64,000 nt of DNA from contig NC_047022.1 in NCBI RefSeq assembly GCF_902652985.1, positions 19,282,001 through 19,346,000 on the forward strand, given 5' to 3'. Numbering within the stretch: the stretch's first letter is position 1; every line of letters begins with the position of its first letter. The notes beneath the pieces are model-generated. The model saw nothing but the letters and a program-made list of their open reading frames with translations. It had not been told where the DNA came from and searched no databases. Source of the DNA: Pecten maximus (taxonomy: Eukaryota). Made by a program: the position numbers and the translations under genes. Below are positions 36,440 to 62,768 of the stretch, in pieces.

Positions 36440-36641
36440 ACATGTCTACCAGGTCAACACGATGATGCTAAGGCTGAGTGTTAGTAATTTCTCCATTTTC
36501 TCAAACCAATCTTCCTATGGCAATGATCACAGTCTAGGAATCTGCTTTGTGGCCCTCCTTTGAATGCATTCTACCATTTCAATGTGTTTCGTTAAATGAT
36601 CCAGACTGGGCTTGCATCTCTTAGTTAGATCTTACCAGAGT
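36440..36641 (-). mobile_element. CR1-like LINE ORF2 fragment
   Basis: The minus strand reads TLVRS..ASPVW..KHIEMVECIQRRATKQIPRL*SLP, matching the CR1 motif LVRPHLEY..W.P...DI..LERVQRRATK.I, with stops and frameshifts. Confidence 0.75.
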
Positions 36642-37497
36642 GAGATCTTACCAGAGTGAGATCTTACCAGAGTGAGATCTTAATAGACTGAGATCTTACC
36701 AGAGTGAGATCTTACCATAGTGAGATCTTAATAGAGGGAGATCTTACCAGAGTTAGATCTTAATAGAGGGAGATCTTACCAGAGTTATATCTTAATAGAG
36801 TGAGATCTTAATAGAGAGACATCTTACCAGAGTGAGATCTTTATAGAGGGAGATCTTACCAGAGTGAGATCTTACCATAGTGAGATCTTAATAGAGTGAG
36901 ATCTTTCCAGAGTGAGATCTTAATAGAGAGAGATCTTACCAGAGTGAGATCTAAATAGAGGGAGATCTTAATAGAGAGAGATCTTACCAGAGTGAAATCT
37001 TAATAGAGGGAGATCTTACCAGAGTGAGATATTTATAGAGGGAGATCTTACCAGAGTGAGATCTTACCACAGTTAGAGCTTACCAGATCGAGATCTTACC
37101 ATAGTGAGATCTTAATAGAGTGAGATCTTACCAGAGTGAGATCTTAATAGTGTGAGATCTTAATAGAATGATATCTTACCAGAGTGAGATCTTAATAGAG
37201 TGAGATCTTAACAAAGAGATCTTACCAGAGTGAGATCTTACCAGAGTGAGATCTTACCAGATCGAGATCTTACCAGAGTGAGATCTACAATAGTGAGATC
37301 TTAATAGAGTGAGATCTTACCAGATTTAAATCTTACCAGAGTGAGATCTTACCAAAATGAGATCTTACCAGAGTGAAATCTTACCAGAGTGAGATCTTAC
37401 CAAAGTGAGATCTTACCAGAGTGAAATCTTACCAGAGTGAGATCTTACCAGAGTGAAATCTTAATAGAGTGAAATCTTACCAGAGTGAGATCTTACC
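36627..37497. repeat. 16-bp minisatellite (~54 units)
   Basis: Unit AGATCTTACCAGAGTG with the variant AGATCTTAATAGAGTG. Confidence 0.97.
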
Positions 37498-38761: not shown

Positions 38762-40030
38762 CTTTCTTTCTTTATTCGATCTCTTTACAAAAGTTCAATG
38801 TATAAAGAAACATATTTACAACATTCAACAAATACAATATATAAGGAGGACAAATTATATAACTTTTTTAAACAGAACTTTGATAAATTTACATAAATTT
38901 CTTAATGTTTTGATATTTGTAGAGTTCATCAGCAGTGAAAATTTTATAATATTTGGTATCGTATAATAGTATTTATTAATATATAATTTTCTTTCCAAAG
39001 TCAAAAATGGGCATTTTAATAGATAATGAAATTCATCACCGATGTCATTGGTATCACAATAAGGACAAATTCTATTTTGATAATTTACATTATTCCATCT
39101 ACCAGTTTCCACAATGAATTTATGATTACTTGTTCTAAATCTACACATCAAAATTCTGTCGTTGTCACTAAATATATCAAAACATTTTTCAAAATTATAC
39201 TCTTTTTTATACATTCTATAACAGACTGACATCGATGAATTAAAAATGTCATTATTCCATTTTTGTAAAAATTGATCACACAATATCTGCTTAACTTGAG
39301 CTTTAACCCATTGTGGGTTCAAATTATTATGGAATTGAGAATTCCATATATACATCAGACCACAATCATTTAAAATATTTTGTATAAAACTTCAGTATGG
39401 AACAAATCTATTTTCATTAATAAATACATGATATAACATATTATACATTACAACATTCAATTTACTTTCTTTTGATATAATCATATTTGACCAATAATTA
39501 ATCATCTTTATTTTTATGTCAATTACAAGTGGGTTTGTACCCATATACCATGTAACTTGGTGTACTTTTTTTCAAACCTAATAGTAATTTACAACATTTA
39601 AGATAAAAACGCTCAATTGATTGTATATTTGTAAAACCCCATATCTCACAACCGTATAACAAAATTGGTTTCACTATTTTTTCAAATACTAAGTAATTCA
39701 AAAATACACCTGGTCGATAAATTCAACTTTCTTCCTTTTTTCAAAACATCATACATCGCAATTGAGGCTTTTTTAATATTCTGACTCTCGGCATCATTAA
39801 ATGAAGATGTCTTTGAAAATACTGTACCAAGATACGTAAATTTGTTCACACGTTCAATTACGACATTTTCGAATTTGAAAACATGTCTATTGACAAATCT
39901 TACTTTTGAAAACACCATACATTTTGTTTTATCACTATTAACTTTTAATTTCCATCGAGTACAGTATTCACTAAATATATCAAGCTGATTTTGTAGATCA
40001 GTAGGATTATCAGAAAATAAAATAGCAAGT
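38762..40030 (-). mobile_element. 5'-truncated non-LTR retrotransposon (RTE-X-like) ORF2 remnant
   Basis: Successive broken frames: LFSDNPTDLQNQLDIFSEYCTRWKLKVNSDKTK, VNKFTYLG, VKPILLYGCEIWG and the C-terminal CCHC knuckle FRTSNHK..VETGRW..RICPYC..IGDEFHYLLKCP. Ends in AATAAA plus a (GAAA)n tail. Confidence 0.88.
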
Positions 40031-41427: not shown

Positions 41428-44400
41428 AGTTATTGTAAATATGTAAATATGCCATCTTGTTGTAATGATTATGTATCGGGAAAGGGCTTTATCTAAGTTG
41501 TATAACTTGTGCCCAATCCCTTTGTAAAGTTCAGTTACAAATAAAAATATCAAATCCAAAGTTCCAAAGAACTTTTGATTAATCCTGAACATCCAAAACT
41601 CTTCTGTCAAGATATATACCATTTCAGAACTTCAGTTTCAGTTTTGTTTGTTTTTGTTATAAGGGCCCTTCTCCCCAAGACAGGGCAAGGGCATTACAGT
41701 TTCTCTTGTCAAAATAGTGTTATTTTACATACGACCAATCCAGATCTACTCGATAATACAGAATTTTTTCAAGATATAGACTGAACAGGTAAAGTGTTTT
41801 TAAGTTCTTTAGTTGAGTGTGTGACGACGTTTACCCTTCCGGAACACCCTGGGCCTATTTCCATTGTTCTTGTCGATTGATCTCCATGTATACATGTATC
41901 TATATTTAGTTTATGTTTAGCGCTATTGTTTAATCGGATTTGAGAAAACAAATTTGAGTTAGAATTATGGTTATGTTTATATGGCGATATCAAATTTAGT
42001 TTGATTTTGTGAACCAATTACATGTAACCCCGTTATATTTGGCATTGTAATTGCTATTGTATGCTTGCATAGAAGACGAGTGTTCTACTGGTAATCATGT
42101 CACTGCAATATACTTACGTTGACGTATTGTTTCACACATTAATGTGTGTCAAGGAGTTAATTAAATCTCTGATATCAACTCCGAAGACCCTTACTCTTTG
42201 ACTACACATTGTATTATATTTGATTTTCTTTTCAATGATCATCATGCCAATCTATATTTTTTTTCTAGATTTTGTTCTCTGTTTGTCGAGTTTGAGTTAG
42301 AACTACGGCTGCGATCTCTGTTGTTTTTTATGATTAAATTGATTTTTTACAAACTACTAGATGTGGCTTATTTACTTTTGTGATTTCATTGCTTGACTCT
42401 GGCGATGAATGCTTCTTATTAGTAGTATACTTCAGTCATTTTTACAAAGCACGCATTTGATCTCATTTCAGTTGTACAATGTATGGCGTTTGCAATTTAT
42501 TTCTTTTATCGTCAGAAATTCCGGCTTTGGCAAACATACATGTTATCTTCATTATATTGACCTCAACGTTTCCGTTCAAATGCTGCTGGAAAGATACGTC
42601 AAATCTTGATTAGATTATATCTGTAATTCCTTGTCAAGTTCCATTTACATTGTAGATGTTCTAACGGAGATCTTGTGATGTCCTCGCTCCTATTCCCTGA
42701 TTAAAGCCATACACATACACGCGATTACTTTCAACCTTATATAAAGATATTTTTAGCCTGTTTGCTATTTCATTTTGTTTATTTATTCCTTTCTATTCCC
42801 TTTCAAGAATTCTTTTAATTACATCCTATCTAATATTACTGTTTACTATCTATTTGGATATTTTATTGTTGGTACACATGTAAGAACTGTTACAGATACA
42901 ATAATTGTTCTCAGTTTATTTAGGTCAACACTGTATGTCCTGTGGTAACGATTTAATTAATATTGAAGATAAACATTATCTACCAAATACCTATATAGGT
43001 CATGTTAACTTTGAAACTCTGACTTAATAAGAGTTAAATAATGTTTGCTTTGTCTGATATGTCTATACGCTGTTTAATTAAAGGTAGTAAGATGGTATTG
43101 GCACGACGATAAAACATATAGTTTCCTATTAGTACACATGTACATGCGTAAGTAAGTACAAAACCGAAATACGTCTTCGATCTACTGACTTATTGTTTCA
43201 CCCAATTAACCTAAAACTTGCTAATACGTATTGACTCTTGTAGAAGATCTCGTTTCAATCGACATCGGTAAAAATGAGGTCACTGTTAATTAACTCTTGG
43301 ACAAGCTCGTGTTTCGATTGACCCGGGTCAAAATAGAGCTAATTGTTCATTAATCGTTCGGACTTGAATGTTTGAATGCAGAGTTGCGGTTTGATAAGGG
43401 CTATTTTAGGGGTGTGATAATATAATATGATAGGATTAAAATGGGGACCTTTCCTTTTTAACAGAAAGCATCTTTATAAAATCATTTCAATTAAGATTGT
43501 ATATGGAATCATTTTTTGATGAAAACCTTAGCGTGTGGCCGATTTAACATATCATAATCTACTAGCATTTGTTTTACTTGTGGTACGAAGCAGTTGTTGG
43601 ACACTAACTTATGCAAGCAAGGTTGGGTCAATATGCTTTTGACAAGGAGCAGATTTTCAGCAGGTTTCAAAAAAACAATTAATAGAACCCATTTTTTTTT
43701 TTAATTAACCGATTTTATTATTCAACTAAGGTGATGCGCTTCCCTATTATTTATCTATTTATTTATTTTTATTCTAAACTTTCTGGGTTTCACTAATTTG
43801 GACCTGCGGTTTAACTAATGATTCCTAGAAGGAGAAAACAAATGTATGATAACATATCCTATTCTCTATCTGTAACTAGGTTCATTTTAAGGGCTCTTTA
43901 CTCTCGTTTGTATCCCGTAAAATTTCTATCCTCAAAATGAAATTAGGATTTAAAACAATCGAATATGACCACAGAATCAGATTTTAACCTTTGTATGATA
44001 AATAGGCCTTGGACGACCGCTACTGTCTTATTCTTAATTTGTTTTGAAGGCTGCTAATATCTTTTGTGTCTTTAGTATAATCCTTGAGATTGCAGGTGGT
44101 AGACATTGATGAACTTTACCTGAGGGATAATATTGTTACGTGCTAGTCACGTTTTAATTCATATGCATGTACTTAACGTTCTTTTGAATTCCAATTTTGA
44201 AATTCATGGAAATCAAACATTGTAATTTATGAAATTTATAGAATGATGGGGTCTTTTGCACCTCTCGGTCCAACTTTTCGAATTTCTTTCAGCATCAGTT
44301 AGCATCACTGACGAGTCCTAGAAGCATGCAACAGATGCATGGTACAATTTCATTCACCTTGTACTGTATCTAACTTTGATTTGTTTTTAAAGGTGCCTTG

Positions 44401-44702
44401 ATATCTTGTGTGTCTCTTGTACAATCTTTTGTTGTCAATAATTGCCGTCAAGTGTGAAAATAGCAAATTTAAATGAGAAAATGATAAATCGAAATACTTA
44501 ATGAATATATTATTTTATTCATTGAAGTCAGATTTCAAAACAACCAACACGACACAATTAACTATACATACTTTGGTTTTCGATACATTCCTGTTCCTCT
44601 CCTGTACACACCGCTCCTGCTTTTGTTTTAGGGCGCTCCATTGTTCATACTATCGAGCTTGCAACATTAGAAAAACCAATAAAAAAGAAGTTAAATTGAT
44701 TG

Positions 44703-45938
44703 TCAGATGTGAACATCTCCACTCTCAACTTCTGTTGATAAATCTGTTGTAGAAACATCTGTAGATGAGTTGTGGCCTTTAAAAAGGGAAGATGTGGACA
44801 TGATAGCAGCTCTGGGGACGGTACAAGTCTTCTTTTCGAGTTCCTTCCCACAAAAAAGATAGAGCTGTCGACGATACGCATTGTTCATAGTGACATAGAT
44901 CACAAAGTTTATGGATGAGTTGAAACTTTCAGTAATCAGTCCAATCAGTGTCAACAAAGTGTGGACATTGGAGCTGTAATTGACGTGGGAGCTGTTGGGG
45001 TCGAAGAGAATCATTAAACGCGAAATTGTTGACGGGAGTAAACAGATAATGAACACACAGGTGATAGTGAGGAGTGTTTTCGTTATTTGTCTTTCATCTC
45101 CTGCTGGTTGTTGCCCTACTGTATAATTTTGTTTCCGATTTCTCCACTTCGCTTGTAAAAATAGGACGGCAATTATGATTGCATTGCACACGGCACTTAA
45201 ACCCATCGGCACAAATCGTAAAAGTGCTTCGGAAATAACATAGTACACCTCGAAGAGTTCTTTCTGTCTCCCAATAGAGCCGAGGGTAATGATTTTCGTT
45301 ATATTACCGTCAGGAAGGGTTACCTCCTTGACTTCATAAAGCCAAAGCTTTGGACTTGTGAGAATGGCGACAGACAAAGGAATCACAATTGACAAAGCAA
45401 GCGTAAGTTTCTTCGTACAAATTTGCTTAACTTTGAGTGGACGGGTTACAGCGACAAGGCGTTCCAAGGAAATGAGTGTAACTAACCAGTTGGAAATTCT
45501 TCCTGGAAGAGGACTAAGATACACTGAGAAGGGAATGATGAGGGACATCGAGACCTCCTTGGCATGTTCTGGATAGAAACTCCTGATAATCAGACTGACA
45601 ACGTTGACGATTGTTGATGCTATAAAGGCAAGATCGGCAAATGCAATGGCGATGAGCAAAATCGTAGTGGATCTAGTTGGTCTGTGACGGAACAAAATTA
45701 TTAACGCCAGGCTATTTCCGACGATTCCAAAGACACACATCGGTGGCATGATTCCACAAACAATGATTTTAAGCAAAATATCCATCAATGATTTATCTAT
45801 GACGTAATAATTATTTCTGCTGGATTCACTTTCGGTTTTCATGGAAGTCGTGCTTTCATTATTTCTGAAAATGCTTGATGAGTTAGTTGTACTATTCTGA
45901 TCCTCAGTAAACTCCGACAGAATCTCAGTTGGATCCAT
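44703..45938 (-). CDS. Intronless class A (rhodopsin-like) GPCR, FMRFamide/peptide receptor-like, 411 aa
   Basis: Seven hydrophobic segments with GIVGN (TM1), IAFADL (TM2), SLERLVAV..P (TM3), FIICLLP (TM6) and NSSINFVIY (TM7), plus N-terminal N-glycosylation sequons. The first ATG is at 45938 (the ORF track starts at an upstream TTG). Confidence 0.93.
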   Translation of the reverse strand: MDPTEILSEFTEDQNSTTNSSSIFRNNESTTSMKTESESSRNNYYVIDKSLMDILLKIIVCGIMPPMCVFGIVGNSLALIILFRHRPTRSTTILLIAIAFADLAFIASTIVNVVSLIIRSFYPEHAKEVSMSLIIPFSVYLSPLPGRISNWLVTLISLERLVAVTRPLKVKQICTKKLTLALSIVIPLSVAILTSPKLWLYEVKEVTLPDGNITKIITLGSIGRQKELFEVYYVISEALLRFVPMGLSAVCNAIIIAVLFLQAKWRNRKQNYTVGQQPAGDERQITKTLLTITCVFIICLLPSTISRLMILFDPNSSHVNYSSNVHTLLTLIGLITESFNSSINFVIYVTMNNAYRRQLYLFCGKELEKKTCTVPRAAIMSTSSLFKGHNSSTDVSTTDLSTEVESGDVHI

Positions 45939-48726
45939 TTTCAATATACCCCTATGACATCAACTGAATGACATTGGCTTACTGTTTCTAAAGATTCCCT
46001 TTTTATACCGCGTACATTTCTCTGTGTCACGTGATCTTGTGCCATGGAAACTTGACAGCATCACACCAACCTGACACAATGTCACATGATCTGTTGGCTT
46101 GGAAACATGACAACATCACATACGCAAACACACACTTAACCCCTTTACCAAGGAGGTATCGATTGCCAATCAGCGCGGCCTTAAACAGAGTCTTTAGATA
46201 CTGTAGGTCTTTGATAAATAACACTAATTATGAATGTGATGAAAGATATTCTTTAAATTAGTAGTAAAGCTAGGAGAATGGACATTTCATAGTATTAGAT
46301 ATAAATATAAATATGTTTTAACAAAAAGTATATATATTATGAATTTATGTATCGTATGTGTTCTATCTCTCATTTTAAACAGCACTTTTTGTTTCCACCT
46401 TAAGCATATATGTTAAGTGATACTTAGTTCTCTCAGTTATCATGCCTCATTTAAATACCCTTTTTCTTTTCTTTTTCCTTTCCTTTCAATTGCATCTGTT
46501 CTAATCATTTCTTCAGATAATGCTAGTCTTTCTTTCACTCTTTATCACTTTCATTTTTTTTCAAGCTTATCCAAGTCTGCGGCATGAATAGGCTTCTTAT
46601 ATTGCCCTATCACATTTGAACTTCTCACAGTAAACCATAAGTATGTCTTACCAAATTTTGCACCATCTTACATGATTATCATCACCCTATTTTACCACTC
46701 TATGACATTGTTACTATCTAATCTTAAACTGCCTATCGCATTAAGAATATGCCGAGTGAAGTACGACATATTTGCAGAAAATATTGAATATGCATTTTCC
46801 GTTTGAAAAACTGGGCGGACAGTTTATATTTTGTATTTTTATGATGTTAATTTACATTAAATATTTTTATTACAATCATTATTCTTGTCTGGTTTTACGT
46901 TATCTTCAGCACTATTTTTTACGCGAAACAACATGGTCCAAACCTGTTATCTTAACACTTAACAAAAATGTCTTTTTAGTTATATCGAAGATTCTTTTAA
47001 AAACGTGTGGTAGTTTCCTTACCATCGATATCCGTTACTAGGCTATTTGAATACTCCATGCACTTCAAGATGAGGGCGTGTAGCCGATTCTGTGTCAGCC
47101 GGAGGGCGTTTTTTGGTATTTGAGAACAAATGTTATAACCGTTTTCTATTGAAACAAAGCCTTATTCAATGAGTGATGATATTTTCAATAATCTTTAAAA
47201 TATGATGATGAAAATAAAGTTTCTTTCTTCCCTTTCTAAAATATTCATATAAAGACAAGACGCCATGTACATAATTAATCTTTAATACAATAACAATAAA
47301 CATGTGCACACTATAATTGATTTTCATATAAATTCAGGTAGACTAACCTGAGTCAACATCACAGAATTTTACAGAATGATTTATGTCGAGCAAATAGGAT
47401 TAACATGGTTTTCATTTTCTAGGATATACCCAATTTCTAGTCCTGTAAGTCTCCATAAATTGGAAAGATATGTTCATCATTAAACCATTGTTACAGTAGA
47501 CATCACAAGTAGAAATCTGTGGCAATGGTGAAATGTCTTCTCTTGTGATAATATACATTCCATGTACACAACTTAATAATGGCCGATCCCTTTTAATTCA
47601 TTTTGTGATATTTTCTGTCACTTTCTACAGTATAACCTTCAGGGAACGATTATTTTATATTTTTTTCAATAATTTTGATTTAATGATTCTTGTTTTATTT
47701 TAACCGTAGATGTTTTCAACTTATGTAGTTCATTCGAAGAAAAATATTTGAATAAAACTAAATTTGGTTGCATTATTATGAAGAGATAAAGAGTCTAGAG
47801 TCCAGCTATTATAAAGTATAGTCAGCTTATAGCCTTCTATCTGATTCATTATTTCCGAAGAAACCTCTTTAGACCTATATGGATTAAAAAATATAGATAT
47901 ACAGTGTTCACAATCTAAAATCCTTTCATTTGGTGATAACGTTTGATGTTGTGAAATACCTTTCTAATGTAAACGAGCCGCTGGCTGAAAGGGAATAAAA
48001 ACTGATACAAAAGTATCTTACAACAATACAAGGGAAGATAAGTAAAAAGTGCTACGAGAACTATTATTGATATGGTGTTATCTTGTTCTTCGTATTTACA
48101 TACATTTTCACTTAATATAAAAGGTAATGAGGCTGAAAACATTGTTGAACCTCGTTCACCTGGCAACCACTGATCCGGTAAATTACACTGTTGAGTCAAT
48201 ATTCTAGGAATCAGATAACTTTAAAATCGGCCTGGTTATTAAACCATCTCATATAAGTAATTATATGCATGCATACTATATATGATCATTGGTCATTTGC
48301 TTTTCGGGTTAAAAAGTTCTGCTCAATTATTATTCATCTAACTTTAGTTTCTGCTTATTGTTTTTAACGCTACTTTGGTGCGCAATCATCCTTGCGCTTG
48401 TCAGTTATGCTTACTTTTATGTTGCAAAATGGTTCACAGTACTCGATCAACATGAGATTATCTGGAGGTGGACTGTGTGGTTTTGACTTTATGACTGATT
48501 TTGACTTGTGACTATACATTCTTCGGTAAAAAACGTAAGCTTCATATGAAAGCAAACACAAGATGGCCAAGAAAGAAGCGCACCATTTGTATCCATTGGT
48601 ATGACTAATTGCTTTTGGTGGCGTTTGTGTTTATCACGAGAAATACAACATTTAGTTCAATCTTTGAAGTTTCTTTCGGTTGGTTTCACGAGAATAATGA
48701 AATCGACTGGATTTTGGGTTTTTTTT

Positions 48727-48757
<31 letters not shown>

Positions 48758-49649
48758 GTATTTTTTGTGCCGTCTTAATTATTTCTTTCATTTACATACA
48801 ATATTAAAGAGTTAGAAGCATTATTATTCGCTCACCTCTGGCCACGGTTACCAGGTTGTTTAATTACTTCCTGTGCTACCAGTCGAGAATGGTTTACACG
48901 TGACTTACCCGCGGAATCTTGTTTAGCCTTAGGATTTAAATACATGGGATTAAAACTAAATTGAAAAAACGAAAAGAAGAAGATACCTTTACAATGTAAA
49001 TTAATGACGAATGAATATAGGTTGATCAATATGGCTCAACACTACGTGGCACGTGGTAAGAGATTAGCGCCAAATCTGAGATAATGGGATTTTTTCTATG
49101 ATGATTAAGGTTCCGTGACTTATGTTTCTCGATTTATTGGAAAAATGGCTTGAACGGAATATAAACTAATGCAAATTAATCTTTCACAATACAATGGCTG
49201 ATGGGCAAAACTACAATGCACGAACTTTTATTGATATGGTGTGATCTTGTTCTTGGTCTTTACTTATCATTTTACTTAACATTAAAGATAATGAGGCCAG
49301 GAAACATTGTCAAACCTTGTTCGCCTAGTACTCCCTGATCCAGAAAATTGCTATATTCGGTCAATATTCTAAGAACATATTAATACCCAGTCGGTCTGGT
49401 AATCCTATCATCTCACGATGGTGGCGGTTTATATTGCAATATACATTGTAATTGATATTTTTACTGATTACTAATTAGCCAGGTAAACTAATATCTTCGT
49501 CATCAGTAACACTGAAAAGTTATGGAATAACGGGAACGGTATTTTATCGTCGCTTTCTTTGTTGGCGATACTTTTTCTCACTAATCATTAGTGACATGAC
49601 ATTTTTTATAGGTGGTGGTGATAAAACTATTCTATAAAGCTTACAATTG

Positions 49650-49706
49650 ATGATGATGATGATGATGATGGTGATGATGGTGATGATGATGATGATGATG
49701 ATGATG
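49650..49706. repeat. (GAT)n microsatellite; paralogous copy at ~55593-55635
   Basis: GAT trinucleotide run whose length differs between the duplicated units. Confidence 0.95.
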
Positions 49707-50629
49707 ACAAAAAACTAACACAAGTTGGAGAGATGAGCACATTTAGTTATCATGGGAAATACATGTACATATAGAGGTACAATATATTGTATACTACAGT
49801 TCAATATTTGAAGTTCCTTTTACACACAAATATCAAGATTTTAAAAGGAGTATGGTAATTCGCTCGCCTCTGGCCATGTTTATCATTCCATTTAATTATT
49901 TCCTGTGTTACCAGTCGAAGAAGCGTAACAGATGATTTACCGGCGGAGGATTTACAACATTTGTGAATATGAATATATGAATATCAATATAACCTCAATA
50001 TAACATGTACATATTTTATCTTTGATACAAAAACGGTATCCGACATAATTGATTTACAAATAAATGACATGATTTTACGGAATTATTTTCAGAACCTTTA
50101 GTAAATTTGATGATTTCTTTTTAGAGGGTGTATCTAATTTCGAGTCCTATTTTCTCGATAATTGGAAATAAACTTTTAACATCAAATTATTGTTACAGAC
50201 ATCACAAACAGGAATAAAGTAACAATGATGAAATATATTATCTCATGATAGTACACCTTTATGCACACAACTTAATCATGGCCGACCTTTTTAATACATT
50301 TTGTCGCATGTCTGCACTGTCATCTTTCCTAGTGTAATCGGGGTTTCACGTGACGATTGCTTTAATATTTTCTACCAACAACTATTGATTTTATGATCTT
50401 TTCTTTTTATTTTTACTGCAGATTTATTTATTTTGTGACATTTTCTGCACTGTCACCTTTCACAGAATTATCAAGTTTTCAGGTGACGATTATCTTATTT
50501 GTTTTCAGCAATTTTGATTTAATGATTTTTGTTTTATTTCAACTGTGAATGTTTTCAACTCGCTTATGTATTTCATTTGAGGGGAAATATTTGAATACAA
50601 TTTAACAATTTGGCTATGCACACAATACT

Positions 50630-51808
50630 TTATATTTTCTGATTAGGAGTATTTGCTAATGACGAGACCATGATAGCAGCTCTGGGGACGGTACAAGTCT
50701 TCTTTTCGAGTTCCTTCCCACAAAAAAGATAGAGCTGTCGACGATACGCATTGTTCATAGTGACATAGATCACAAAGTTTATGGATGAGTTGAAACTTTC
50801 AGTAATCAGTCCAATCAGTGTCAACAAAGTGTGGACATTGGAGCTGTAATTGACGTGGGAGCTGTTGGGGTCGAAGAGAATCATTAAACGCGAAATTGTT
50901 GACGGGAGTAAACAGATAATGAACACACAGGTGATAGTGAGGAGTGTTTTCGTTATTTGTCTTTCATCTCCTGCTGGTTGTTGCCCTACTGTATAATTTT
51001 GTTTCCGATTTCTCCACTTCGCTTGTAAAAATAGGACGGCAATTATGATTGCATTGCACACGGCACTTAAACCCATCGGCACAAATCGTAAAAGTGCTTC
51101 GGAAATAACATAGTACACCTCGAAGAGTTCTTTCTGTCTCCCAATAGAGCCGAGGGTAATGATTTTCGTTATATTACCGTCAGGAAGGGTTACCTCCTTA
51201 ACTTCATAAAGCCAAAGCTTTGGACTTGTGAGAATGGCGACAGACAAAGGAATCACAATTGACAAAGCAAGCATAAGTTTCTTCGTACAAATTTGCTTAA
51301 CTTTGAGTGGACGGGTTACAGCGACAAGGCGTTCCAAGGAAATGAGTGTAACTAACCAGTTGGAAATTCTTCCTGGAAGAGGACTAAGATACACTGAGAA
51401 GGGAATGATGAGGGACATCGAGACCTCCTTGGCATGTTCTGGATAGAAACTCCTGATAATCAGACTGACAACGTTGACGATTGTTGATGCTATAAAGGCA
51501 AGATCGGCAAATGCAATGGCGATGAGCAAAATCGTAGTGGATCTAGTTGGTCTGTGACGGAACAAAATTATTAACGCCAGGCTATTTCCGACGATTCCAA
51601 AGACACACATCGGTGGCATGATTCCACAAACAATGATTTTAAGCAAAATATCCATCAATGATTTATCTATGACGTAATAATTATTTCTGCTGGATTCACT
51701 TTCAGTTTTCATGGAAGTCGTGCTTTCATTATTTCTGAAAATGCTTGATGAGTTAGTTGTACTATTCTGACTCTCAGTAAACTCCGATAGAATCTCAGTT
51801 GTATCCAT
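50630..51808 (-). CDS. Duplicated class A GPCR with chimeric shortened C-terminus, 392 aa
   Basis: Identical to the 44703-45938 protein except for three substitutions (P>T and D>S near the N-terminus, T>M in TM4) and replacement of the last 31 aa by VSSLANTPNQKI. The ORF is intact. Confidence 0.85.
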   Translation of the reverse strand: MDTTEILSEFTESQNSTTNSSSIFRNNESTTSMKTESESSRNNYYVIDKSLMDILLKIIVCGIMPPMCVFGIVGNSLALIILFRHRPTRSTTILLIAIAFADLAFIASTIVNVVSLIIRSFYPEHAKEVSMSLIIPFSVYLSPLPGRISNWLVTLISLERLVAVTRPLKVKQICTKKLMLALSIVIPLSVAILTSPKLWLYEVKEVTLPDGNITKIITLGSIGRQKELFEVYYVISEALLRFVPMGLSAVCNAIIIAVLFLQAKWRNRKQNYTVGQQPAGDERQITKTLLTITCVFIICLLPSTISRLMILFDPNSSHVNYSSNVHTLLTLIGLITESFNSSINFVIYVTMNNAYRRQLYLFCGKELEKKTCTVPRAAIMVSSLANTPNQKI

Positions 51809-54800
51809 TTTCAATATACCCCTATGACATCAACTGAATGACATTGGCTTACTGTTTCTAAAGATTCCCTTTTTATACCGCGTACATTTCTCTGTGTCAC
51901 GTGATCTTGTGCCATGGAAACTAGACAGCATCACACCAACCTGACACAATGTCACATGATCTGTTGGCTTGGAAACATGACAACATCACATACGCAAACA
52001 CACACTTAACCCCTTTACCAAGGAGGTATCGATTGCCAATCAGCGCGGCCTTAAACAGAGTCTTTAGATACTGTAGGTCCTTGATAAATAACACTAATTA
52101 TGAATGTGATGAAAGATATTCTTTAAATTTGTAGTAAAGCTAGGAGAATGGATATTTCATAGTATTAGATATAAATATAAATATGTTTTAACAAAAAGTA
52201 TATATATTATGAATTTATGTATCGTATGTGTTCTATCTCTCATTTTAAACAGCACTTTTTGTTTCCACCTTAAGTGATACTTAGTTCTCTCAGTTATCAT
52301 GCCACATTTAAATACCCTTTTTCTTTTCTTTTTCTTTCCTTTCAATTGCATCTGTTCTAATCATTTCTTCAGATAATGCTAGTCTTTCTTTCACTCTTTA
52401 TCACTTTCATTTTTTTTTCAAGCTTATCCAAGTCTGCGGCAAGAATAGGTTTCTTATATTGCCCTATCACATTTGAACTTCTCACAGTAAACCATAAGTA
52501 TGTCTTACCAAATTTTGCACCATCTTACATGATTATCATCACCCTATTTTACCACTCTATGACATTGTTACTATCTAATCTTAAACTGCCTATCGCATTA
52601 AGAATATGCCGAGTGAAGTACGACATATTTGCAGAAAATATTGAATATGCATTTTCCGTTTGAAAAACTGGGCGGACAGTTTACATTTTGTATTTTTATG
52701 ATGTTAATTTACATTAAATATTTTTATTACAATCATTATTCTTGTCTGGTTTTACGTTATCTTCAGCACTATTTTTTACGCGAAACAACATGGTCCAAAC
52801 CTGTTATCTTAACACTTAACAAAAATGTCTTTTTAGTTATATCGAAGATTCTTTTAAAAACGTGTGGTAGTTTCCTTACCATCGATATCCGTTACTAGGC
52901 TATTTGAATACTCCATGCACTTCAAGATGAGGGCGTGTAGCCGATTCTGTGTCAGCCGGAGGGCGTTTTTTGGTATTTGAGAACAAATGTTATAACCGTT
53001 TTCTATTGAAACAAAGCCTTATTCAATGAGTGATGATATTTTCAATAATCTTTAAAATATGATGATGAAAATAAAGTTTCTTTCTTCCCTTTCTAAAATA
53101 TTCATATAAAGACAAGACGCCATGTACATAATTAATCTTTAATACAATAACAATAAACATGTGCACACTATAATTGATTTTCATATAAATTCAGGTAGAC
53201 TAACCTGAGTCAACATCACAGAATTTTACAGAATGATTTATGTCGAGCAAATAGGATTAACATGGTTTTCATTTTCTAGGATATACCCAATTTCTAGTCC
53301 TGTAAGTCTCCATAAATTGGAAAGATATGTTCATCATTAAACCATTGTTACAGTAGACATCACAAGTAGAAATCTGTGGCAATGGTGAAATGTCTTCTCT
53401 TGTGATAATATACATTCCATGTACACAACTTAATAATGGCCGATCCCTTTTAATTCATTTTGTGATATTTTCTGTCACTTTCTACAGTATAACCTTCAGG
53501 GAACGATTATTTTATATTTTTTTCAATAATTTTGATTTAATGATTCTTGTTTTATTTTAACCGTAGATGTTTTCAACTTATGTAGTTCATTCGAAGAAAA
53601 ATATTTGAATAAAACTAAATTTGGTTGCATTATTATGAAGAGATAAAGAGTCTAGAGTCCAGCTATTATAAAGTATAGTCAGCTTATAGCCTTCTATCTT
53701 ATTCATTATTTCCGAAGAAACCTCTTTAGACCTATATGGATTAGAAAATATAGATATACAGTGTTCACAATCTAAAATCCTTTGATTTGGTGATAACGTT
53801 TGATGTTGTGAAATACCTTTCTAATGTAAACGAGCCGCTGGCTGAAAGGGAATAAAAACTGATACAAAAGTATCTTACAACAATACAAGGGAAGATAAGT
53901 AAAAAGTGCTACGAGAACTATTATTGATATGGTGTTATCTTGTTCTTCGTATTTACATACATTTTCACTTAATATAAAAGGTAATGAGGCTGAAAACATT
54001 GTTGAACCTCGTTCACCTGGCAACCACTGATCCGGTAAATTACACTGTTGAGTCAATATTCTAGGAATCAGATAACTTTAAAATCGGCCTGGTTATTAAA
54101 CCATCTCATATAAGTAATTATATGCATGCATACTATATATGATAATTGGTCATTTGCTTTTCGGGTTAAAAAGTTCTGCTCAATTATCATTCATCTAACT
54201 TTAGTTTCTGCTTATTGTTTTTAACGCTACTTTGGTGCGCAATCATCCTTGCGCTTGTCAGTTATGCTTACTTTTATGTTGCAAAATGGTTCACAGTATT
54301 CGATCAACATGAGATTATCTGGAGGTGGACTGTGTGGTTTTGACTTTATGACTGTTTTTGACTTGTGACTATACATTCTTCGGTAAAAAACGTAAGCTTC
54401 ATATGAAAGCAAACACAAGATGGCCAAGAAAGAAGCGCACCATTTGTATCCATTGCTATGACTAATTGCTTTTGGTGGCTTTTGTGTTTATCACGAGAAA
54501 TACAACATTTAGTTCAATCTTTGAAGTTTCTTTCGGTTGGTTTCACGAGAATAATGAAATCGACTGGATTTTGTGTGTGTGTGTTTGTTTTTGTTTTTTA
54601 GTTTTTTTTGGCGGGGCGGGGGGGGGGGGGGGGTATTTTTTGTGCCGTCTTCAATTAACTCTGTTGCTTTAAAGAACACCCAAACTTTCTAGTTCAAAGC
54701 TAGAAATACTCGGTACTTAATTATTTATTTCATTTACATACAATAATAAAGAGTTAAAAGTATTGTAATTCGCTCACCTCTGGCCACGGTTACCAGGTTA

Positions 54801-55591
54801 TTTAACGACTTCCTGTGCTACCAGTCGAGAATGGTTTACACGTGACTTACCCGCGGAATCTTGTTTAACCATGGGATTTAAATACATGGGATTAAAACTA
54901 AATTGAAAAAACGAAAAGAAGAAGATACCTTTACAATGTAAATTAATGACGAATGAATGTAGGTTGATCAATATGGCTCAACACTACGTGGCACGTGGTT
55001 AGAGATCAGCGCCAAATTTGAGATAATGGAATTTTTTCTCTGATGATTAAGGTTCCGTGACTTATGTTTCTCGATTTATTGGAAAGATGGCTTGAACGGA
55101 ATATAAACTAATGCAAATTATTTTTTTCACAATACAATGGCTGATGGGCAAAACTGCAATTGCACGAACTTTTATTGATATGGTGTGATCTTGTTCTTGG
55201 TCTTTACTTATCATTTTACTTAACATCAAAGATAATGAGGCCAGGAAACATTGTCAAACCTTGTTCGCCTAGTACTCCCTGATCCAGTAAATTGCTATAT
55301 TCGGTCAATATTCTAAGAACATATTAATACCCAGTCGGTCTGGTAATCCTATCATCTCACGATGGTGGCGGTTTATATTGCAATATACATTGTAATTGAT
55401 ATTTTTACTGATTACTAATTAGCCAGGTAAACTAATATCTTCGTCATCAGTAACACTGAAAAGTTATGGAATAACGGGAACGGTATTTTATCGTCGCTTT
55501 CTTTGTTGGCGATACTTTTTCTCACTAATCATTAGTGACATGACATTTTTTATAGGTGATGGTGATAAAACTATTCTATAAAGCTTACAAT

Positions 55592-55636
<45 letters not shown>

Positions 55637-57944
55637 CAAAAAACTAACACAAGTTGGAGAGATGAGCACATTTAGTTATCATGGGAAATACATGTACATA
55701 TAGAGGTACAATATATTGTATACTACAGTTCAATATTTGAAGTTCCTTTTACACACAAATATCAAGATTTTAAAAGGAGTATGGTAATTCGCTCGCCTCT
55801 GGCCATGCTTATCATTCCATTTAATTATTTCCTGTGCTACCAGTCGAAGAAGCGTAACAGATGATTTACCGGCGGAGGATTTACAACATTTGTGAATATG
55901 AATATATGAATATCAATATAACCTCAATATAACATGTACATATTTTATCTTTGATACAAAAACGGTATCCGACATAATTGATTTACAAATAAATGACATA
56001 ATTTTACGGAATTATTTTCAGAACCTTTAGTAAATTTGATGATTTCTTTTTAGAGGGTGTATCTAATTTCGAGTCCTATTTTCTCGATAATTGGAAATAA
56101 ACTTTTAACATCAAATTATTGTTACAGACATCACAAACAGGAATAAAGTAACAATGATGAAATATATTATCTCATGATAGTACACCTTTATGCACACAAC
56201 TTAATCATGGCCGACCTTTTTAATACATTTTGTCGCATGTCTGCACTGTCATCTTTCCTAGTGTAATCGGGGTTTCACGTGACGATTGCTTTAATATTTT
56301 CTACCAACAACTATTGATTTTATGATCTTTTCTTTTTCTTTTTACTGCAAATGTATTTTATTTTGTGACATTTTCTGCACTGTCACCTTTTACAGAATTA
56401 TCAAGTTTTCAGGTGACGATTATCTTATTTGTTTTCAGCAATTTTGATTTAATGATTTTTGTTTTATTTCAACTGTGAATGTTTTCAACTCGCTTATGTA
56501 TTTCATTTGAGGGGAAATATTTGAATACAATTTAACAGTTTGGCTATGCACACAATACTTTATATTTTCTGATTAGGAGTATTTGCTAATGACGAGACCA
56601 CCTTGGCTTTGATTACAGTATGATATAGAGATCAGAGAGTTCGGAGTCAAGGTATGTAAAGTATGGTCAGCTTACGAGTAATAAGCAAGATATCTGAAAA
56701 TTAATTTTGAGTAGTATCTGAACATTTAGAAAATCAACGTGTATTTTTTTTAATTCATTGTTTTCGAGGTAGCCTCTTTAGATCATTACCGAATGAAACC
56801 CACAGAAGATTAACTTTTGTCTTAAGCTAACATAACGATAGTTTGATAAGTAGTATATACCCTGTTACAAAGTGATTACATTCAAAATCCTTTAATCTGG
56901 GGCTAAGATAGCTTTTAACGTAACAAAAAGGTATTAAGGCTAAGAACCATTGTTAAACATTGTTCACCCGACAACTAATGACCTGATCAATTTCACTACT
57001 CGGCCAATTCTATGAAACATATTAGGCTTTATACAGTTGAACTAGTAATCCAAACAACTAAAACGTGACTGTGTACATTATAAATGAGATTTTCCCTTAG
57101 AAATAGTGTGCCAGGTAGCATAAAATATAGGGTTATTACTTTCTAGTCAGTAAAGATAAAAAAAAAAAAAGGAAGAGAGAAAAATATCAAATTAAGAGAA
57201 TATTTCATCGCCATACACAATGTTTGCGACATCGTGCACATTTACAACTATTAATAGTGGCACGTTATTGGTTTTTTTTATGGATGATGATGATGACGAC
57301 GACGACGACGACGATGATGATTTGTTTTACTTTAAAAAGTAACGTATTTCTTCATGATTATTGTTATGCAACTTAACGAAAATGTGTCGATGCTGGTGGC
57401 ATGTATCTTGACGTCAGCGCTTTACGACTAAAAACAGTCCTCTTAATCATGATTCAGCTACGTGTACTTTCTGTGTACGGTTGTAACGACTGTTTTGGAT
57501 GTGCGCAAAATCTTAATCTCGCTAACTTGTCTAAATTCCGTTATACTTTTACAGTTTAGCTCGAGGGAAAAATCCGTTTGCAGTATTCGATCAGCATGAG
57601 GATATCTAGAGGTTTTGGCAAGGACTTTTATTTGTTATCTCTTTTGATATGAAAAAAAACCCAATAATAGACATGTAGGTTATGATTTAATTACAGATAA
57701 ATTATTAAGGTCAATTTATACGACTCAAAACCACGTGACACGTGGAAAGAGATTAGAGTCCAACCTAAGATAATATTTTTGGTTAAGACAAGTTCCAGTA
57801 TTATACTTCTCCATAAACCCTTGCAAACCGCAAACATCTGGGAAAGAGATCAGTAACAACTTGATTTTACATCATTTCAACATGAAACTGCTTTCTCTAG
57901 ATATTTATTGTGGTATTTAATTCTGTGAGAATTATAGGAAGATA

Positions 57945-59953: not shown

Positions 59954-62768
59954 TTATTTCATGCACACTACGCAACTTATATATTTGTTTTCCTTGTATG
60001 GCGGACATCGCAGAGAGCCACAGAACGCTTTAACTCCATAAAAAAGTGCACCGTCGTCGTTTGTGTTACCTCCACCAACAAGAGGCTGCGCATGCTCATC
60101 TACACACAAATATTCTGTAGCAGCTGCATGACCATAGTGCCCTGAAGTCAGTGACCCGCCATACGCCTTCGTCCAGCCGCTGTAGCATGTCGTCCTCGCC
60201 GGTATCATCACAGATGAGGCAAAATACTTAGATCTACAGACTGCACATGGGATTTCCTCGTTGTGTGAGTCGTCCCCAAATAGTGTATGGCCACTGGAAG
60301 ATTCGTACTCCGCCCCATAAATCCTTCCCGTATAATCATCTGGGACGACTGTTGTCTGTAACCATTCTGGATCAGGTGGCAGACAGAGGCGATCTGCTGC
60401 TGCTCCGGTGTCATAATACCATGAACCTCCAGCATAACCTAAAATTAAGAATAACAAGCCTTGGCGAACTGCAGTCTCTCAAGTGGATGTTGAATCATAT
60501 GCCAAGAATACATTAATTGAGACTTTGCGGGTCAAAGATAGAAATATAGACAAGAGTGATTTACTTTTGATGCAACACAACGCCTCACCAGGGTGAACCA
60601 AAGTTTCAAGTATGGAGCTCCAGTGACAAGAAATGTTGGATAGAACCCATACTCAATTTTTTCATTGATATAGGTCAAAGGGCAAAAATGAAAGTCAGAG
60701 TGACCTACTTTTGATACACAATACATCGCCTCATCTAGGTGAATGCATGTTAATCTAAACCCCAATTATGAAGTTCCAGTAAAAAGTAGTGTAGGAGATA
60801 GAGACCAAACATTTTTATGTCGGTCAAAGGTGAAAATTTAGGTCACATTGACCAAATTTTGAAATTAACAAACCACTTCATCTAGGTGAATGCACGTCTC
60901 AACGATGGAAAATACCAGTATCCAGTAGCGTAGGAAATATAGCCCGAACAAGGTAATGTGCGGACGGACAAAGACGGTCGGCGGAACGAACGGCCAAAGT
61001 CGACTAGTGGGGTGTAGTGTTTTGTCTGTGGACTTGTGGGGTGCACTCCGCAAGTCGATCAGAATTTCAAAATCTGTTTTTATTTCTGTTCATTCCGTCG
61101 CTAAAAACACATGCGCAGATATACTGACGTCACTGAATCGGTGAATACACCCTACAGGGAGTTTGAGTGAGTAAGGACGGACAGACAGACATAATGCAAA
61201 ACTATAGTCCCCCAGTTACCGAAGGGAGACAAATATCGGTACGGTTCTGATGATGTCAATTCTTCCTATTGCTAGGCTGAGTGTTAAAGACGCTACAAAG
61301 AATCATTCTAATCGATCGGAAACTATATAACGCTATCAATGCCTTTCAAGAGTTTGTTTTACATTATATTTTAAATATAAACTGGATAAACAATGAATTG
61401 CATCCAAAAGAAATTATACTGTGTTCCTTCTCTATCTTATATATATATATAGATGACTCTATACAACGACCAATCCCGACTCTTGTCATATAAAACGATG
61501 TGCATTAAAACAGTATATAATGAGTTTAAGTTCACAATGTTGACCCTAAATGACGTTATATGTATTATTCCAGTTTAATTACCTACATACCAGAATATAC
61601 AAGCTCCGTCAAGTTGGCGGGACAATCGGTCCGTCCCCAGCGCACAAATGATGCTCCTCCTCCTTAAGATATGAAAAGAAGACAAATTAGTCACCAACAT
61701 TTCTGATAAATTATATAAATTGAAGTTAAATTGTGCATAATTTGATAGGTTAAATAAAACAAATGTCATAAATTACGAATATGACAAAAATATTTACCCT
61801 GATGTACCTGAGACAGTTGTTTGAGGTACTCGATTTCTCTAGCCTGGCTCTGGGTCTCTGGTGATGGTAAAAGAGTAAAAATAATAATCATAATTGTTTT
61901 CAATATAATGCAATGTATATGATCTCGTCTGGGCCATTAAAAGTAAAGATTAATGTTCGTTTGTTTTTGTTTTTACAAGAGTCATGAGGACATTGTCAAT
62001 GAGACATCGAATGGCTCAGTGTCATATGAGGACGGGTGTCAAGGAGACATCCTATGGTCTAGGATCATATGGGGAGGGTTTTCATGGTGACATCCTCTGA
62101 TTCATGATCATATAAGGACGGGTGTCAAGGAGATCACCTATGATCAAGGGTCATATGAGGACGATGTCAAGAAGACACATTATGATCCAGGATCATATGA
62201 GGACGGGTGTCAAGGAGATACCGAATGAGCCATAGTTTTAAATGCAAAGTATCTTAAGCTTACTGAGGACTTGCATGAAATCGGATCAAACTGATTTGAT
62301 ATTAAGAAGTATGAAAACACAAAACCAATCGCATGCTGACAAATCAGATATATTGCATTACTCGTATTCGGTATTGTCCTTCATATGACGTCATTGAATC
62401 TGACGTCATTAAGTTTATGTGATAATAAACTATCTGTTAATTTCAAAAGATTGTTATAAACCATCACCAACCCCTCTAAAACTTAGTAACTTACCATTGT
62501 TTGAATACGAGAGTTGTTGCTCCAACGAAGATATTTTAACATTCTGTGACTGTACCGTTGTCTGCAGGGTCTGCAATTCACCATTCTGTGATTGTACCGT
62601 CGCCTGTAGGGTCTGTAGCTCACTCTGTAGGTGGGTCATCTGTTGTTGGACGTAGTCGGGGTCACTCAGGAGAATCCTCTTGTCATGGTTGCTAAAACAA
62701 CTACCACAAACTAACATAAAATACAAGACGTTGATCACCAAATGTGCTCGTCCGTACTTACAAGCCAT
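59954..62768 (-). CDS. Secreted short-chain collagen C4-like protein (signal peptide, coiled coil, spongin/C4 NC1-like domain), 3 exons, 276 aa
   Basis: Exons 62495-62768, 61591-61662 and 59954-60438, with phase-1 GT-AG introns and a total of 831 nt. Family motifs FVRWGRTDCP, LVYSGYAGGSWY, LCLPPDP, IYGAEYE, PCAVC, MIPARTTC..GWTKAY.G.L and CGSLRCPPY...CVVC.K are present. Confidence 0.9.
60530..61232. mobile_element. Decayed Helentron/HINE-type element in the intron of the C4-like gene
   Basis: Two to three diverged ~160-170 bp repeats (GCCTCA..AGGTGAA), a GGACGGACAGAC microsatellite and the terminal ACTATAGTCCCC...GGGAGAC hairpin. Confidence 0.6.
61978..62235. repeat. Degenerate ~48-bp minisatellite related to the 27975-29030 array
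   Basis: Core TCATATGAGGACGGGTGTCAAGGAGACA repeated about 5 times. Confidence 0.8.

What the first reader, a model, noticed from the sequence alone, without database searches (positions are those of the whole stretch)
50630..51808. Newborn GPCR paralogue with a swapped C-terminal tail
The ~5.9 kb duplication breakpoint (CA microhomology at 50669-50670) falls inside the CDS, after TM7 and helix 8. The new copy keeps the whole 7TM core and ~4.8 kb of upstream DNA. It loses the 31-aa Ser/Thr-rich tail (STSSLFKGHNSSTDVSTTDLSTEVESGDVHI) and its 3'UTR. It gains 12 residues and a stop from former non-coding DNA, with a fortuitous AATAAA ~95 nt downstream (50533-50538). Such tails carry GRK/arrestin phosphosites, so the pair may bind the same ligand but differ in desensitisation. 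Three amino-acid changes and several indels already separate the units.
Basis: partly seen in the sequence, partly recalled or inferred. Interest (0 to 1): 0.7.

Follow-up and report, generated by a model that had tools for sequence, protein, structure and literature searches.

The report
Tail-clipped receptor copy in a scallop
A 5.9-kb stretch of a scallop chromosome is doubled so that the extra copy of a cell-surface receptor gene keeps its whole signalling core but loses the end of its tail; the doubling is likely carried by only some animals, and the clipped receptor would probably switch off more slowly if it is made at all, so this is a clean but ordinary kind of partial gene copy.

Summary
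The anatomy is as described. There is a tandem duplication (44799-50670 / 50669-56600, 2-bp CA overlap). Copy A is complete (411 aa). Copy B (392 aa) keeps seven helices and helix 8 but swaps 31 tail residues (13 Ser/Thr) for 12. The junction looks like real DNA: run X4 holds a 58-bp contig made only of junction-specific 31-mers (depth 40). That contig is short of the tool's 31-letter bridging rule, and X4 may be the source animal. Two other samples show only the unduplicated paths, so this is most likely a segregating copy-number allele, not an established paralogue. The 1% difference between the units is largely standing allelic variation: 30 of 60 'unit 2' bases occur in a sample without the junction, T3/S13 included. 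It is not divergence after birth. The AATAAA and the 2-bp microhomology are at chance level. Copy B keeps a promoter core conserved with an older paralogue and loses nearly all predicted phospho-clusters plus a conserved xH[M/I] terminus. Slower desensitisation is therefore plausible but untested; expression and ligand are unknown. Known kind: partial duplication recruiting non-coding DNA, in an orphan 'FMRFamide-receptor-like' scallop GPCR family. Interest 0.27.

The parts
44799..50670 (.). Duplication unit 1 (5872 bp): most of the copy A CDS, its promoter and 4.7 kb upstream
50669..56600 (.). Duplication unit 2 (5932 bp): codons 1-380 of copy B, its promoter and upstream DNA; 1.0% substitutions and 11 indels against unit 1
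50669..50670 (.). Junction; 2-bp CA microhomology inside codon 380
   Evidence: 58-bp contig 50641-50698 in run X4
44703..45938 (-). Copy A: complete single-ORF class A GPCR, 411 aa
44703..44798 (-). Distal tail of copy A (31 aa, 13 Ser/Thr, ends VHI) and stop; outside the duplication
44514..44519 (-). First AATAAA after the copy A stop (184 nt); use not shown
50630..51808 (-). Copy B: 392 aa, 7TM core and helix 8 intact, chimeric tail
50723..50752 (-). Predicted helix 8 of copy B (residues 353-362)
50630..50668 (-). Recruited 12 codons and stop, taken from DNA 4.7 kb upstream of the copy A start (homologous to 56560-56598)
50533..50538 (-). AATAAA 92 nt after the copy B stop; chance-level, use not shown
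51896..51904 (-). E-box-like TCACGTGAC at -96 of copy B (copy A: 46026-46034); also at -94 of the older paralogue
51869..51877 (-). TATA-like TATAAAAAG at -69 of copy B (copy A: 45999-46007); also at -74 of the older paralogue

Best explanation
A 5.9-kb tandem duplication cuts an orphan scallop class A GPCR gene at codon 380; it is likely a real allele carried by only some animals, likely formed by a non-homologous join between two different haplotypes, and it would give an extra receptor that still signals but is predicted to be desensitised and internalised less well. SHOWN: the anatomy; junction-specific DNA in one run; unduplicated paths in two other samples; unit differences shared with those samples; promoter core inside the unit; loss of the distal tail. 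INFERRED: (1) repair by end joining or template switching, since the breakpoints share only 2 bp and no repeat; (2) an inter-haplotype origin, since the units differ by ordinary alleles, so the 1% difference does not date the event; (3) transcription of copy B from the copied promoter, ending at one of several chance AATAAA; (4) weaker GRK/arrestin engagement and loss of a terminal docking motif. Copy A stays whole, so the likely fate is that of most partial duplicates: a low-frequency, near-neutral or mildly harmful variant that is lost.
For: Junction: X4 holds a 58-bp contig at 50641-50698 with 0 mismatches and depth 39.9. Its span is exactly that of the 28 31-mers crossing the junction. The neighbouring X4 contigs stop where a graph branch predicts: the left-flank contig ends at 44828/50698 and the right-flank contig starts at 50641. 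No GATC, TTAA, GANTC or CTNAG lies within 8 bp of any of the three breakpoints, and CATG is missing at the right one, so it is not one of X4's ligation-like joins. Polymorphism: X1, X3 (sample S1) and X5 (S3) bridge the breakpoints by the parental paths, unbranched, in contigs of 993, 1002, 372, 725 and 378 bp. Standing alleles: 30 of 60 unit-2 letters in X1 and 22 of 60 in X5 among the 40 rows shown; X1 also has a 1669-bp contig identical to unit 1. The differences are patchy (0 to 22 per 500 bp, dispersion p = 4e-13). No repeat is shared at the breakpoints (best local hit E = 0.04, on the opposite strand and away from them). Promoter: E-box and TATA at -96/-69 in both copies and at -94/-74 in a paralogue with 76% nucleotide identity. 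Tail: PPP/PXPP/PXPXXP/PXXPXXP counts fall from 7/6/8/5 to 0/0/1/0, and ICL3 has none (definitions from PMC8795447, passages seen). All 6 scallop homologues end in xHM and copy A in VHI; copy B ends QKI.
Against: The 58-bp contig has only 28 unique letters on each side and so fails the tool's own 31-letter rule for bridging. X4 is one run, looks like a proximity-ligation library with uneven depth, and may be the animal the window was assembled from, so it is not independent population evidence. Contigs drop rare variants, so absence of the junction in S1 and S3 is not proven. Only 40 of 107 difference rows were shown. T179M could not be typed in X1/X5: that row comes from the paralogue's contig. 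Two crossovers after an identical-at-birth duplication would give the same allele sharing. Motif counts did not predict GRK selectivity in 12 human receptors, and other determinants of arrestin function exist (PMC8795447, passages). A CXCR4 frameshift tail was degraded fast (PMC8802859, abstract), so a clipped tail need not mean more signalling. Expression and ligand are not shown.
Confidence: 0.7

Rival explanations
1. False duplication: the assembler laid the two haplotypes of one animal head to tail, and copy B does not exist.
For: The 1.0% difference with indels is allele-like, and the alleles are shared with other samples. S1, the sample with the highest word share (0.88-0.92), holds both unit-1-type and unit-2-type letters yet shows no junction in X1 or X3. 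The only junction contig is under the 31-letter bridging rule.
Against: An assembly seam would not appear as 28 consecutive junction-specific 31-mers at mean depth 39.9 in a read set, with both neighbouring contigs broken at the predicted bases. There is no gap and no fitting restriction site at the seam.
Confidence: 0.08
2. A real duplication, but copy B is a dead-on-arrival fragment: not transcribed, or its message is unstable without the parental 3' UTR, or the protein is degraded or mis-sorted without its conserved terminus.
For: The 3' UTR and first AATAAA of copy A lie outside the unit. The terminal xH[M/I] kept by 7 of 7 scallop full-length relatives (copy A included) is lost. An RNA-like contig of X6 runs unbroken from 50670-equivalent to 50078, past the AATAAA at 50538; strand unknown, weak hint. 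CXCR4 S339fs5 shows high basal degradation (PMC8802859, abstract). Rogers et al. expect most such new genes to be lost (PMC5460883, passages).
Against: The ORF is intact and single-exon, and the promoter core and 4.8 kb upstream are copied. Eight AATAAA/ATTAAA hexamers lie within 1 kb after the stop. In D. yakuba 30 duplications activated neighbouring untranscribed DNA.
Confidence: 0.35
3. An established, selected paralogue pair: two receptors for one ligand that are kept because they differ in desensitisation.
For: Clean removal of the phospho-clusters with core and helix 8 intact, like CXCR4 R334X and unlike L317fsX3 (abstracts). The family duplicates in tandem repeatedly: pairs on one contig in two other scallops and a third copy 40 kb away here.
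Against: Two of three DNA samples show only unduplicated paths. The unit differences are shared alleles, not new changes. None of the 6 scallop homologues has a clipped tail. The extension length, AATAAA and microhomology are at chance level.
Confidence: 0.07

Closest known systems
Segregating tandem duplications with 'recruited non-coding sequence' in Drosophila yakuba (Rogers et al. 2017, PMC5460883; passages seen)
   Same: A tandem duplication captures the 5' part of a gene with its promoter and places it next to former non-coding DNA; 30 such cases among 1116 duplications; most are expected to be lost.
   Different: Those cases were scored for transcription, which is not shown here. Here 92% of the coding sequence is kept and only a regulatory tail is swapped; the host is a bivalve.
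WHIM-syndrome CXCR4 tail truncations and frameshifts: R334X, S339fs5 (PMC8802859) and L317fsX3 (PMC10077478); abstracts seen
   Same: A class A GPCR loses its distal Ser/Thr-rich tail, in one case with a few new residues; R334X and S339fs5 show less phosphorylation, arrestin binding and endocytosis, and more signalling.
   Different: Those are point or frameshift alleles that replace one gene copy; here an extra copy sits beside an intact gene. The ligand is unknown here and no effect has been measured. L317fsX3 shows the opposite signalling outcome when the whole tail goes.
Molluscan 'FMRFamide receptor-like' / Srw-like lineage-expanded class A GPCRs (about 450 in Lymnaea, often in tandem groups, PMC11589774; truncated and pseudogene members catalogued in PMC11886862; passages seen)
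   Same: Pfam 7tm_1 and Srw above cut-off; nearest relatives carry the automatic name 'FMRFamide receptor-like'; single ORF; tandem neighbours; 39 matches at E <= 1e-10 in this genome, a lower bound.
   Different: Close relatives (68-72%) were found only in scallops, and the same subfamily is also auto-named TRH-receptor-like and neuropeptide-receptor-15-like, so the label does not name a ligand. Orthology to the Lymnaea expansion was not tested.
Hemizygous and tandem-duplication structural variants of mollusc genomes (Calcino et al., 10.1101/2020.09.15.298695; passages seen)
   Same: In eight molluscs including Pecten maximus, 39-85% of within-individual deletions were flagged as tandem-duplication-containing; a heterozygous tandem duplication in a reference reads as such a deletion.
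   Different: That work lists classes, not this locus in the passages I saw (no 'GPCR' or 'G-protein coupled' hit as spelled); its supplements were not seen and might list this region.

Membership tests
Class A (rhodopsin-like) GPCR | Seven transmembrane helices plus helix 8 | tested here: met
   Model of copy B (mean pLDDT 70.7): long helices from 49-84 to 324-351 and H353-362; best fold matches are peptide GPCRs such as TRHR, SSTR1 and NTSR1, E about 1e-9
Class A (rhodopsin-like) GPCR | Pfam 7tm_1 above the curated cut-off | tested here: met
   82.6 bits against 30.5
Class A (rhodopsin-like) GPCR | D/ERY and NPxxY motifs (recalled) | tested here: inconclusive
   Variant forms ERL and NFVIY; E159, R160, N344 and Y348 are invariant in 12 of 12 aligned sequences
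Class A (rhodopsin-like) GPCR | TM3-ECL2 disulphide (common, not universal; recalled) | tested here: not met
   Cys lie at 61, 68, 174, 251, 294, 299, 363 and 372; none in ECL2 (about 200-225) or at the top of TM3
True FMRFamide receptor | Activation by FMRFamide peptides | not testable with these tools
   The name comes from automatic annotation of relatives
True FMRFamide receptor | Orthology to deorphanised FMRFamide receptors | not tested
   No deorphanised reference was among the 11 hits; the trees hold only those hits
Srw-like / FMRFamide-receptor-like expanded orphan GPCRs | Srw profile match, single-ORF gene, many dispersed and tandem relatives | tested here: met
   Srw 55.6-56.9 bits against 22.2; 39 genomic matches, one 40 kb away at 72%
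Partial tandem duplication with recruited non-coding sequence | 5' gene part and promoter copied and joined to non-coding DNA | tested here: met
   longest stop-free stretch in 55930-57054 is 50 codons
Partial tandem duplication with recruited non-coding sequence | Segregates in the population | tested here: inconclusive
   Junction in 1 of 3 DNA samples; contigs show presence, not absence
Partial tandem duplication with recruited non-coding sequence | Chimeric transcript across the junction | tested here: inconclusive
   2 RNA or RNA-like runs laid; see Tried and rejected
False (haplotype) duplication | Junction absent from read data | tested here: not met
   Junction-specific 58-bp contig in X4, depth 39.9; below the tool's 31-letter bridging rule
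False (haplotype) duplication | Units differ at allelic level | tested here: met
   also expected for an inter-haplotype duplication
WHIM-type desensitisation-defective GPCR | Distal phospho-clusters lost, core and helix 8 kept | tested here: met
WHIM-type desensitisation-defective GPCR | Reduced arrestin binding and internalisation, prolonged signalling | not testable with these tools
   needs cell assays and a ligand

The most novel reading that the evidence does not exclude
Copy B is transcribed from its copied promoter, reaches the membrane and acts dominantly as a slow-to-desensitise receptor beside the intact gene. It would then be a naturally segregating one-step tail-swap GPCR in wild scallops: a WHIM-like gain of function made by duplication, caught before fixation or loss and testable by genotype.
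Probability: 0.2. Interest if true: 0.55.

Novelty: new member of a known kind. Interest (0 to 1): 0.27.

Why it matters
If expressed, it would show that one structural mutation can hand a GPCR a new regulatory mode at once while the parent gene is spared, and carriers and non-carriers could be compared directly. As it stands it is one partial duplicate of an orphan receptor in a genus where tandem structural variants are common. It also carries a practical warning: both copies are in public protein collections as separate genes although copy B is probably a copy-number allele, and the 1% difference between such tandem units should not be read as age or as adaptive divergence.

Tried and rejected
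I laid 2 of the 9 RNA or RNA-like rows with any share. X6 (RNA is a guess) gave no cover of the CDS and X10 gave nothing on 50480-50860. Contigs and filters leave holes, so this does not show that either copy is silent.

Depth as copy number: in X4 the left flank is 32, junction 40, CDS 63-82, unit end 95 and right flank 70. This would fit a heterozygous duplication, but the tool says depth is no copy number and the library looks uneven, so it is not used.

Rows dropped: 3 of the 40 rows (45354, 45357, 45403) match the paralogue's letters and were removed before the allele count. T179M therefore stays untyped in X1 and X5.

X4's loose end at 50771 and its 1451-bp 'go back' joint were first read as an insertion in TM7 and a second duplication. 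Both are GATC joined to TAA (2 of 2), which fits DpnII/MseI proximity-ligation joins (enzyme sites recalled; PMC9073679 seen in a search listing only), so they were rejected as genomic variants. The loose-end letters had no match in the window or the three fetched loci.

Homologous recombination between repeats was rejected: nothing is shared at the breakpoints. A mobile-element origin of the new tail: DNA search of 49720-50670 found 4 of 4 matches inside this locus (very common words are skipped).

Trees resolve only the A+B pair firmly. Same-species pairs get 94/99 (Mizuhopecten, 12 rows) or 84/95 (Ylistrum, 9 rows after dropping three long-branch rows) in one tree but not the other, so lineage-specific duplication is not established.

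Papers: a search for a GPCR paralogue with a duplication-made tail returned 0 papers with 4 of 5 terms. That is one narrow search, not proof of absence. One search gave nothing on this locus (listing only). Earlier scan notes: none near the locus or by words. L002 and L003 were fetched but used only in the motif search. No complex prediction was run.

Full report
Observation. The window holds a tandem duplication with units 44799-50670 and 50669-56600 and no gap. The breakpoints share CA, and the units differ by 60 substitutions and 11 indel events over 5843 aligned bases. Copy A (44703-45938, 411 aa) is whole. Copy B (50630-51808, 392 aa) is identical up to codon 380 apart from P3T, D13S and T179M, then reads 12 codons of DNA that lies 4.7 kb upstream of copy A. 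The predicted model of copy B has seven long helices and helix 8 at 353-362, and the junction falls in the low-confidence tail. Three of its details carry no weight: 19% of random joins share 2 or more bases, 43% of random read-through points give 12 or more codons, and 13% of 100-nt windows here contain AATAAA.

What the gene is. It is a class A GPCR that passes the Pfam 7tm_1 and Srw cut-offs and is nearest in fold to peptide receptors at 15-22% identity (sequence search). Its close relatives (68-72%) are all from scallops and carry the automatic names FMRFamide receptor-like, TRH receptor-like or neuropeptide receptor 15-like. One of them, named from Pecten maximus, is a paralogue 40 kb beyond the window on the same contig. 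The genome holds at least 39 matches at E <= 1e-10. The motifs are variants (ERL, NFVIY), and there is no cysteine pair for the usual TM3-ECL2 bridge. I treat it as an orphan of the expanded molluscan FMRFamide-receptor-like kind (PMC11589774 and PMC11886862, passages), not as a proven FMRFamide receptor.

Is the junction real? Five DNA or DNA-like runs of three samples hold most of the stretch; I laid four of them (X1, X3, X4, X5). X4 contains a 58-bp contig at 50641-50698 with no mismatch and depth 39.9. That is exactly the span of the 28 31-mers that cross the junction and occur nowhere else in the window. The X4 contigs for the left and right flanks end at the bases where a branch is expected. 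With 28 unique letters a side, the contig does not meet the tool's 31-letter rule for bridging, so the case rests on the graph signature. X4 also shows joins of GATC to TAA (2 of 2 readable), which suggests a proximity-ligation library (enzyme sites recalled). None of the four usual sites lies within 8 bp of the three breakpoints, so the junction is not such a join. I put real DNA at about 0.9. X4 may be the animal the window was assembled from; I did not determine this.

Is it fixed? Probably not. X1 and X3 (sample S1) and X5 (S3) bridge the breakpoints along the unduplicated paths in long unbranched contigs. An RNA-like contig of X6 (S4) also runs from the unit end into the right flank. Contigs can drop rare variants, so this is 1 of 3 DNA samples with the junction, not proof of absence in the others.

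Do the differences date or specialise the copies? No. Among the 40 rows shown of 107, after dropping 3 that come from the paralogue, unit-2 letters appear at 30 of the 60 substituted sites in X1 and 22 in X5, including those for T3 and S13. The 13-bp indel is in both. X1 also has a 1669-bp contig identical to unit 1. At position 179 all 7 homologues aligned have M, like copy B. So copy B's coding region is the ordinary allele, and copy A carries the less usual residues. The simplest origin is a non-homologous join between two haplotypes: one gave the left flank and unit 1, the other unit 2 and the right flank. Later crossovers within the units are the alternative. No repeat is shared at the breakpoints. 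Heterozygous tandem variants are common in molluscs (10.1101/2020.09.15.298695, passages; supplements not seen).

Could copy B work? Transcription is plausible. An E-box-like and a TATA-like motif at -96 and -69 are in both copies and are kept at -94 and -74 in the paralogue, which is 76% identical in its coding DNA (motif names recalled). The ORF is a single exon, and several hexamers follow the stop. Expression was not shown either way (see Tried and rejected). If the protein is made, the tail after helix 8 drops from 49 to 30 residues and from 15 to 5 Ser/Thr. Predicted phospho-patterns fall from 7/6/8/5 to 0/0/1/0, with none in ICL3 to compensate (definitions from PMC8795447, which also warns that such counts did not predict GRK selectivity). 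This suggests a terminal docking signal, perhaps PDZ-type (recalled, untested), and copy B loses it. CXCR4 shows the range of outcomes: more signalling with R334X and S339fs5, fast turnover with S339fs5, and reduced signalling with L317fsX3 (abstracts).

Comparison and verdict. It works like the 'recruited non-coding' partial duplications that segregate in D. yakuba (PMC5460883, passages). In predicted effect it resembles WHIM-type tail truncation. It meets the structural tests for the first; the transcript test is open. It fails the key test for a false duplication. One paper search for a GPCR paralogue with a duplication-made tail found none, which is too narrow to claim absence from print. 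Verdict: real, probably segregating, new member of a known kind; interest 0.27. The bold reading, an expressed and dominant slow-desensitising receptor allele, has probability about 0.2 and would merit about 0.55.

Noticed in passing
window 56570-56889: X3 (S1) and X5 (S3) each hold a second path that jumps from the 56569-equivalent base to 56890: a likely 320-bp deletion allele that spans the right breakpoint of the duplication and most of the DNA that supplied the new tail. Two independent breakpoints lie 31 bp apart.
   Followed up: partly
window 47388-48706 and 49817-50670 (or their unit-2 equivalents, on to about 57054): RNA-like run X6 has low-depth contigs (3-6.6) over this non-coding stretch, one running into the right flank; no long ORF. 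It could be a long non-coding or intronic transcript, or DNA in the library; strand unknown.
   Followed up: partly
window 47410-48915 against 49146-50600: Inside each unit three short segments recur at 71-77% identity: an older, decayed local duplication.
   Followed up: no
L001:4531-5763 (G000:C8:19386530 onward, + strand): Third paralogue, 410 aa, 72% identical, opposite strand, with the same promoter core; two other scallops also have pairs on one contig.
   Followed up: partly
window 44000-48500: X5 covers this part with long contigs at depth 25-31 but 48866-50639 at 44-66; possibly one haplotype lacks or differs over the gene. Depth is not copy number, so only a lead.
   Followed up: no
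window 59954-62768 (-): Multi-exon gene for a probably secreted protein: signal-like start, coiled-coil repeat (weak Fib_alpha match below cut-off) and a Cys/Gly-rich last exon with no Pfam hit; resembles 'short-chain collagen C4-like' proteins (recalled).
   Followed up: partly
window 38855-39355 (-): 166-aa ORF with a CxxC...HxxxxC pattern, like the end of a LINE ORF2 (recalled); no Pfam hit.
   Followed up: partly
window 7400-9730, 11585-13250, 23512-24510, 25057-25704, 27973-29076, 36622-37497: Six minisatellite arrays; the one at 23512 gives a 265-codon repetitive ORF.
   Followed up: no
run X4, window 50771 and 48448/46998: Contig joins of GATC to TAA at high apparent depth mimic an insertion and a tandem duplication; a trap when contigs of such libraries are read for structural variants.
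   Followed up: yes
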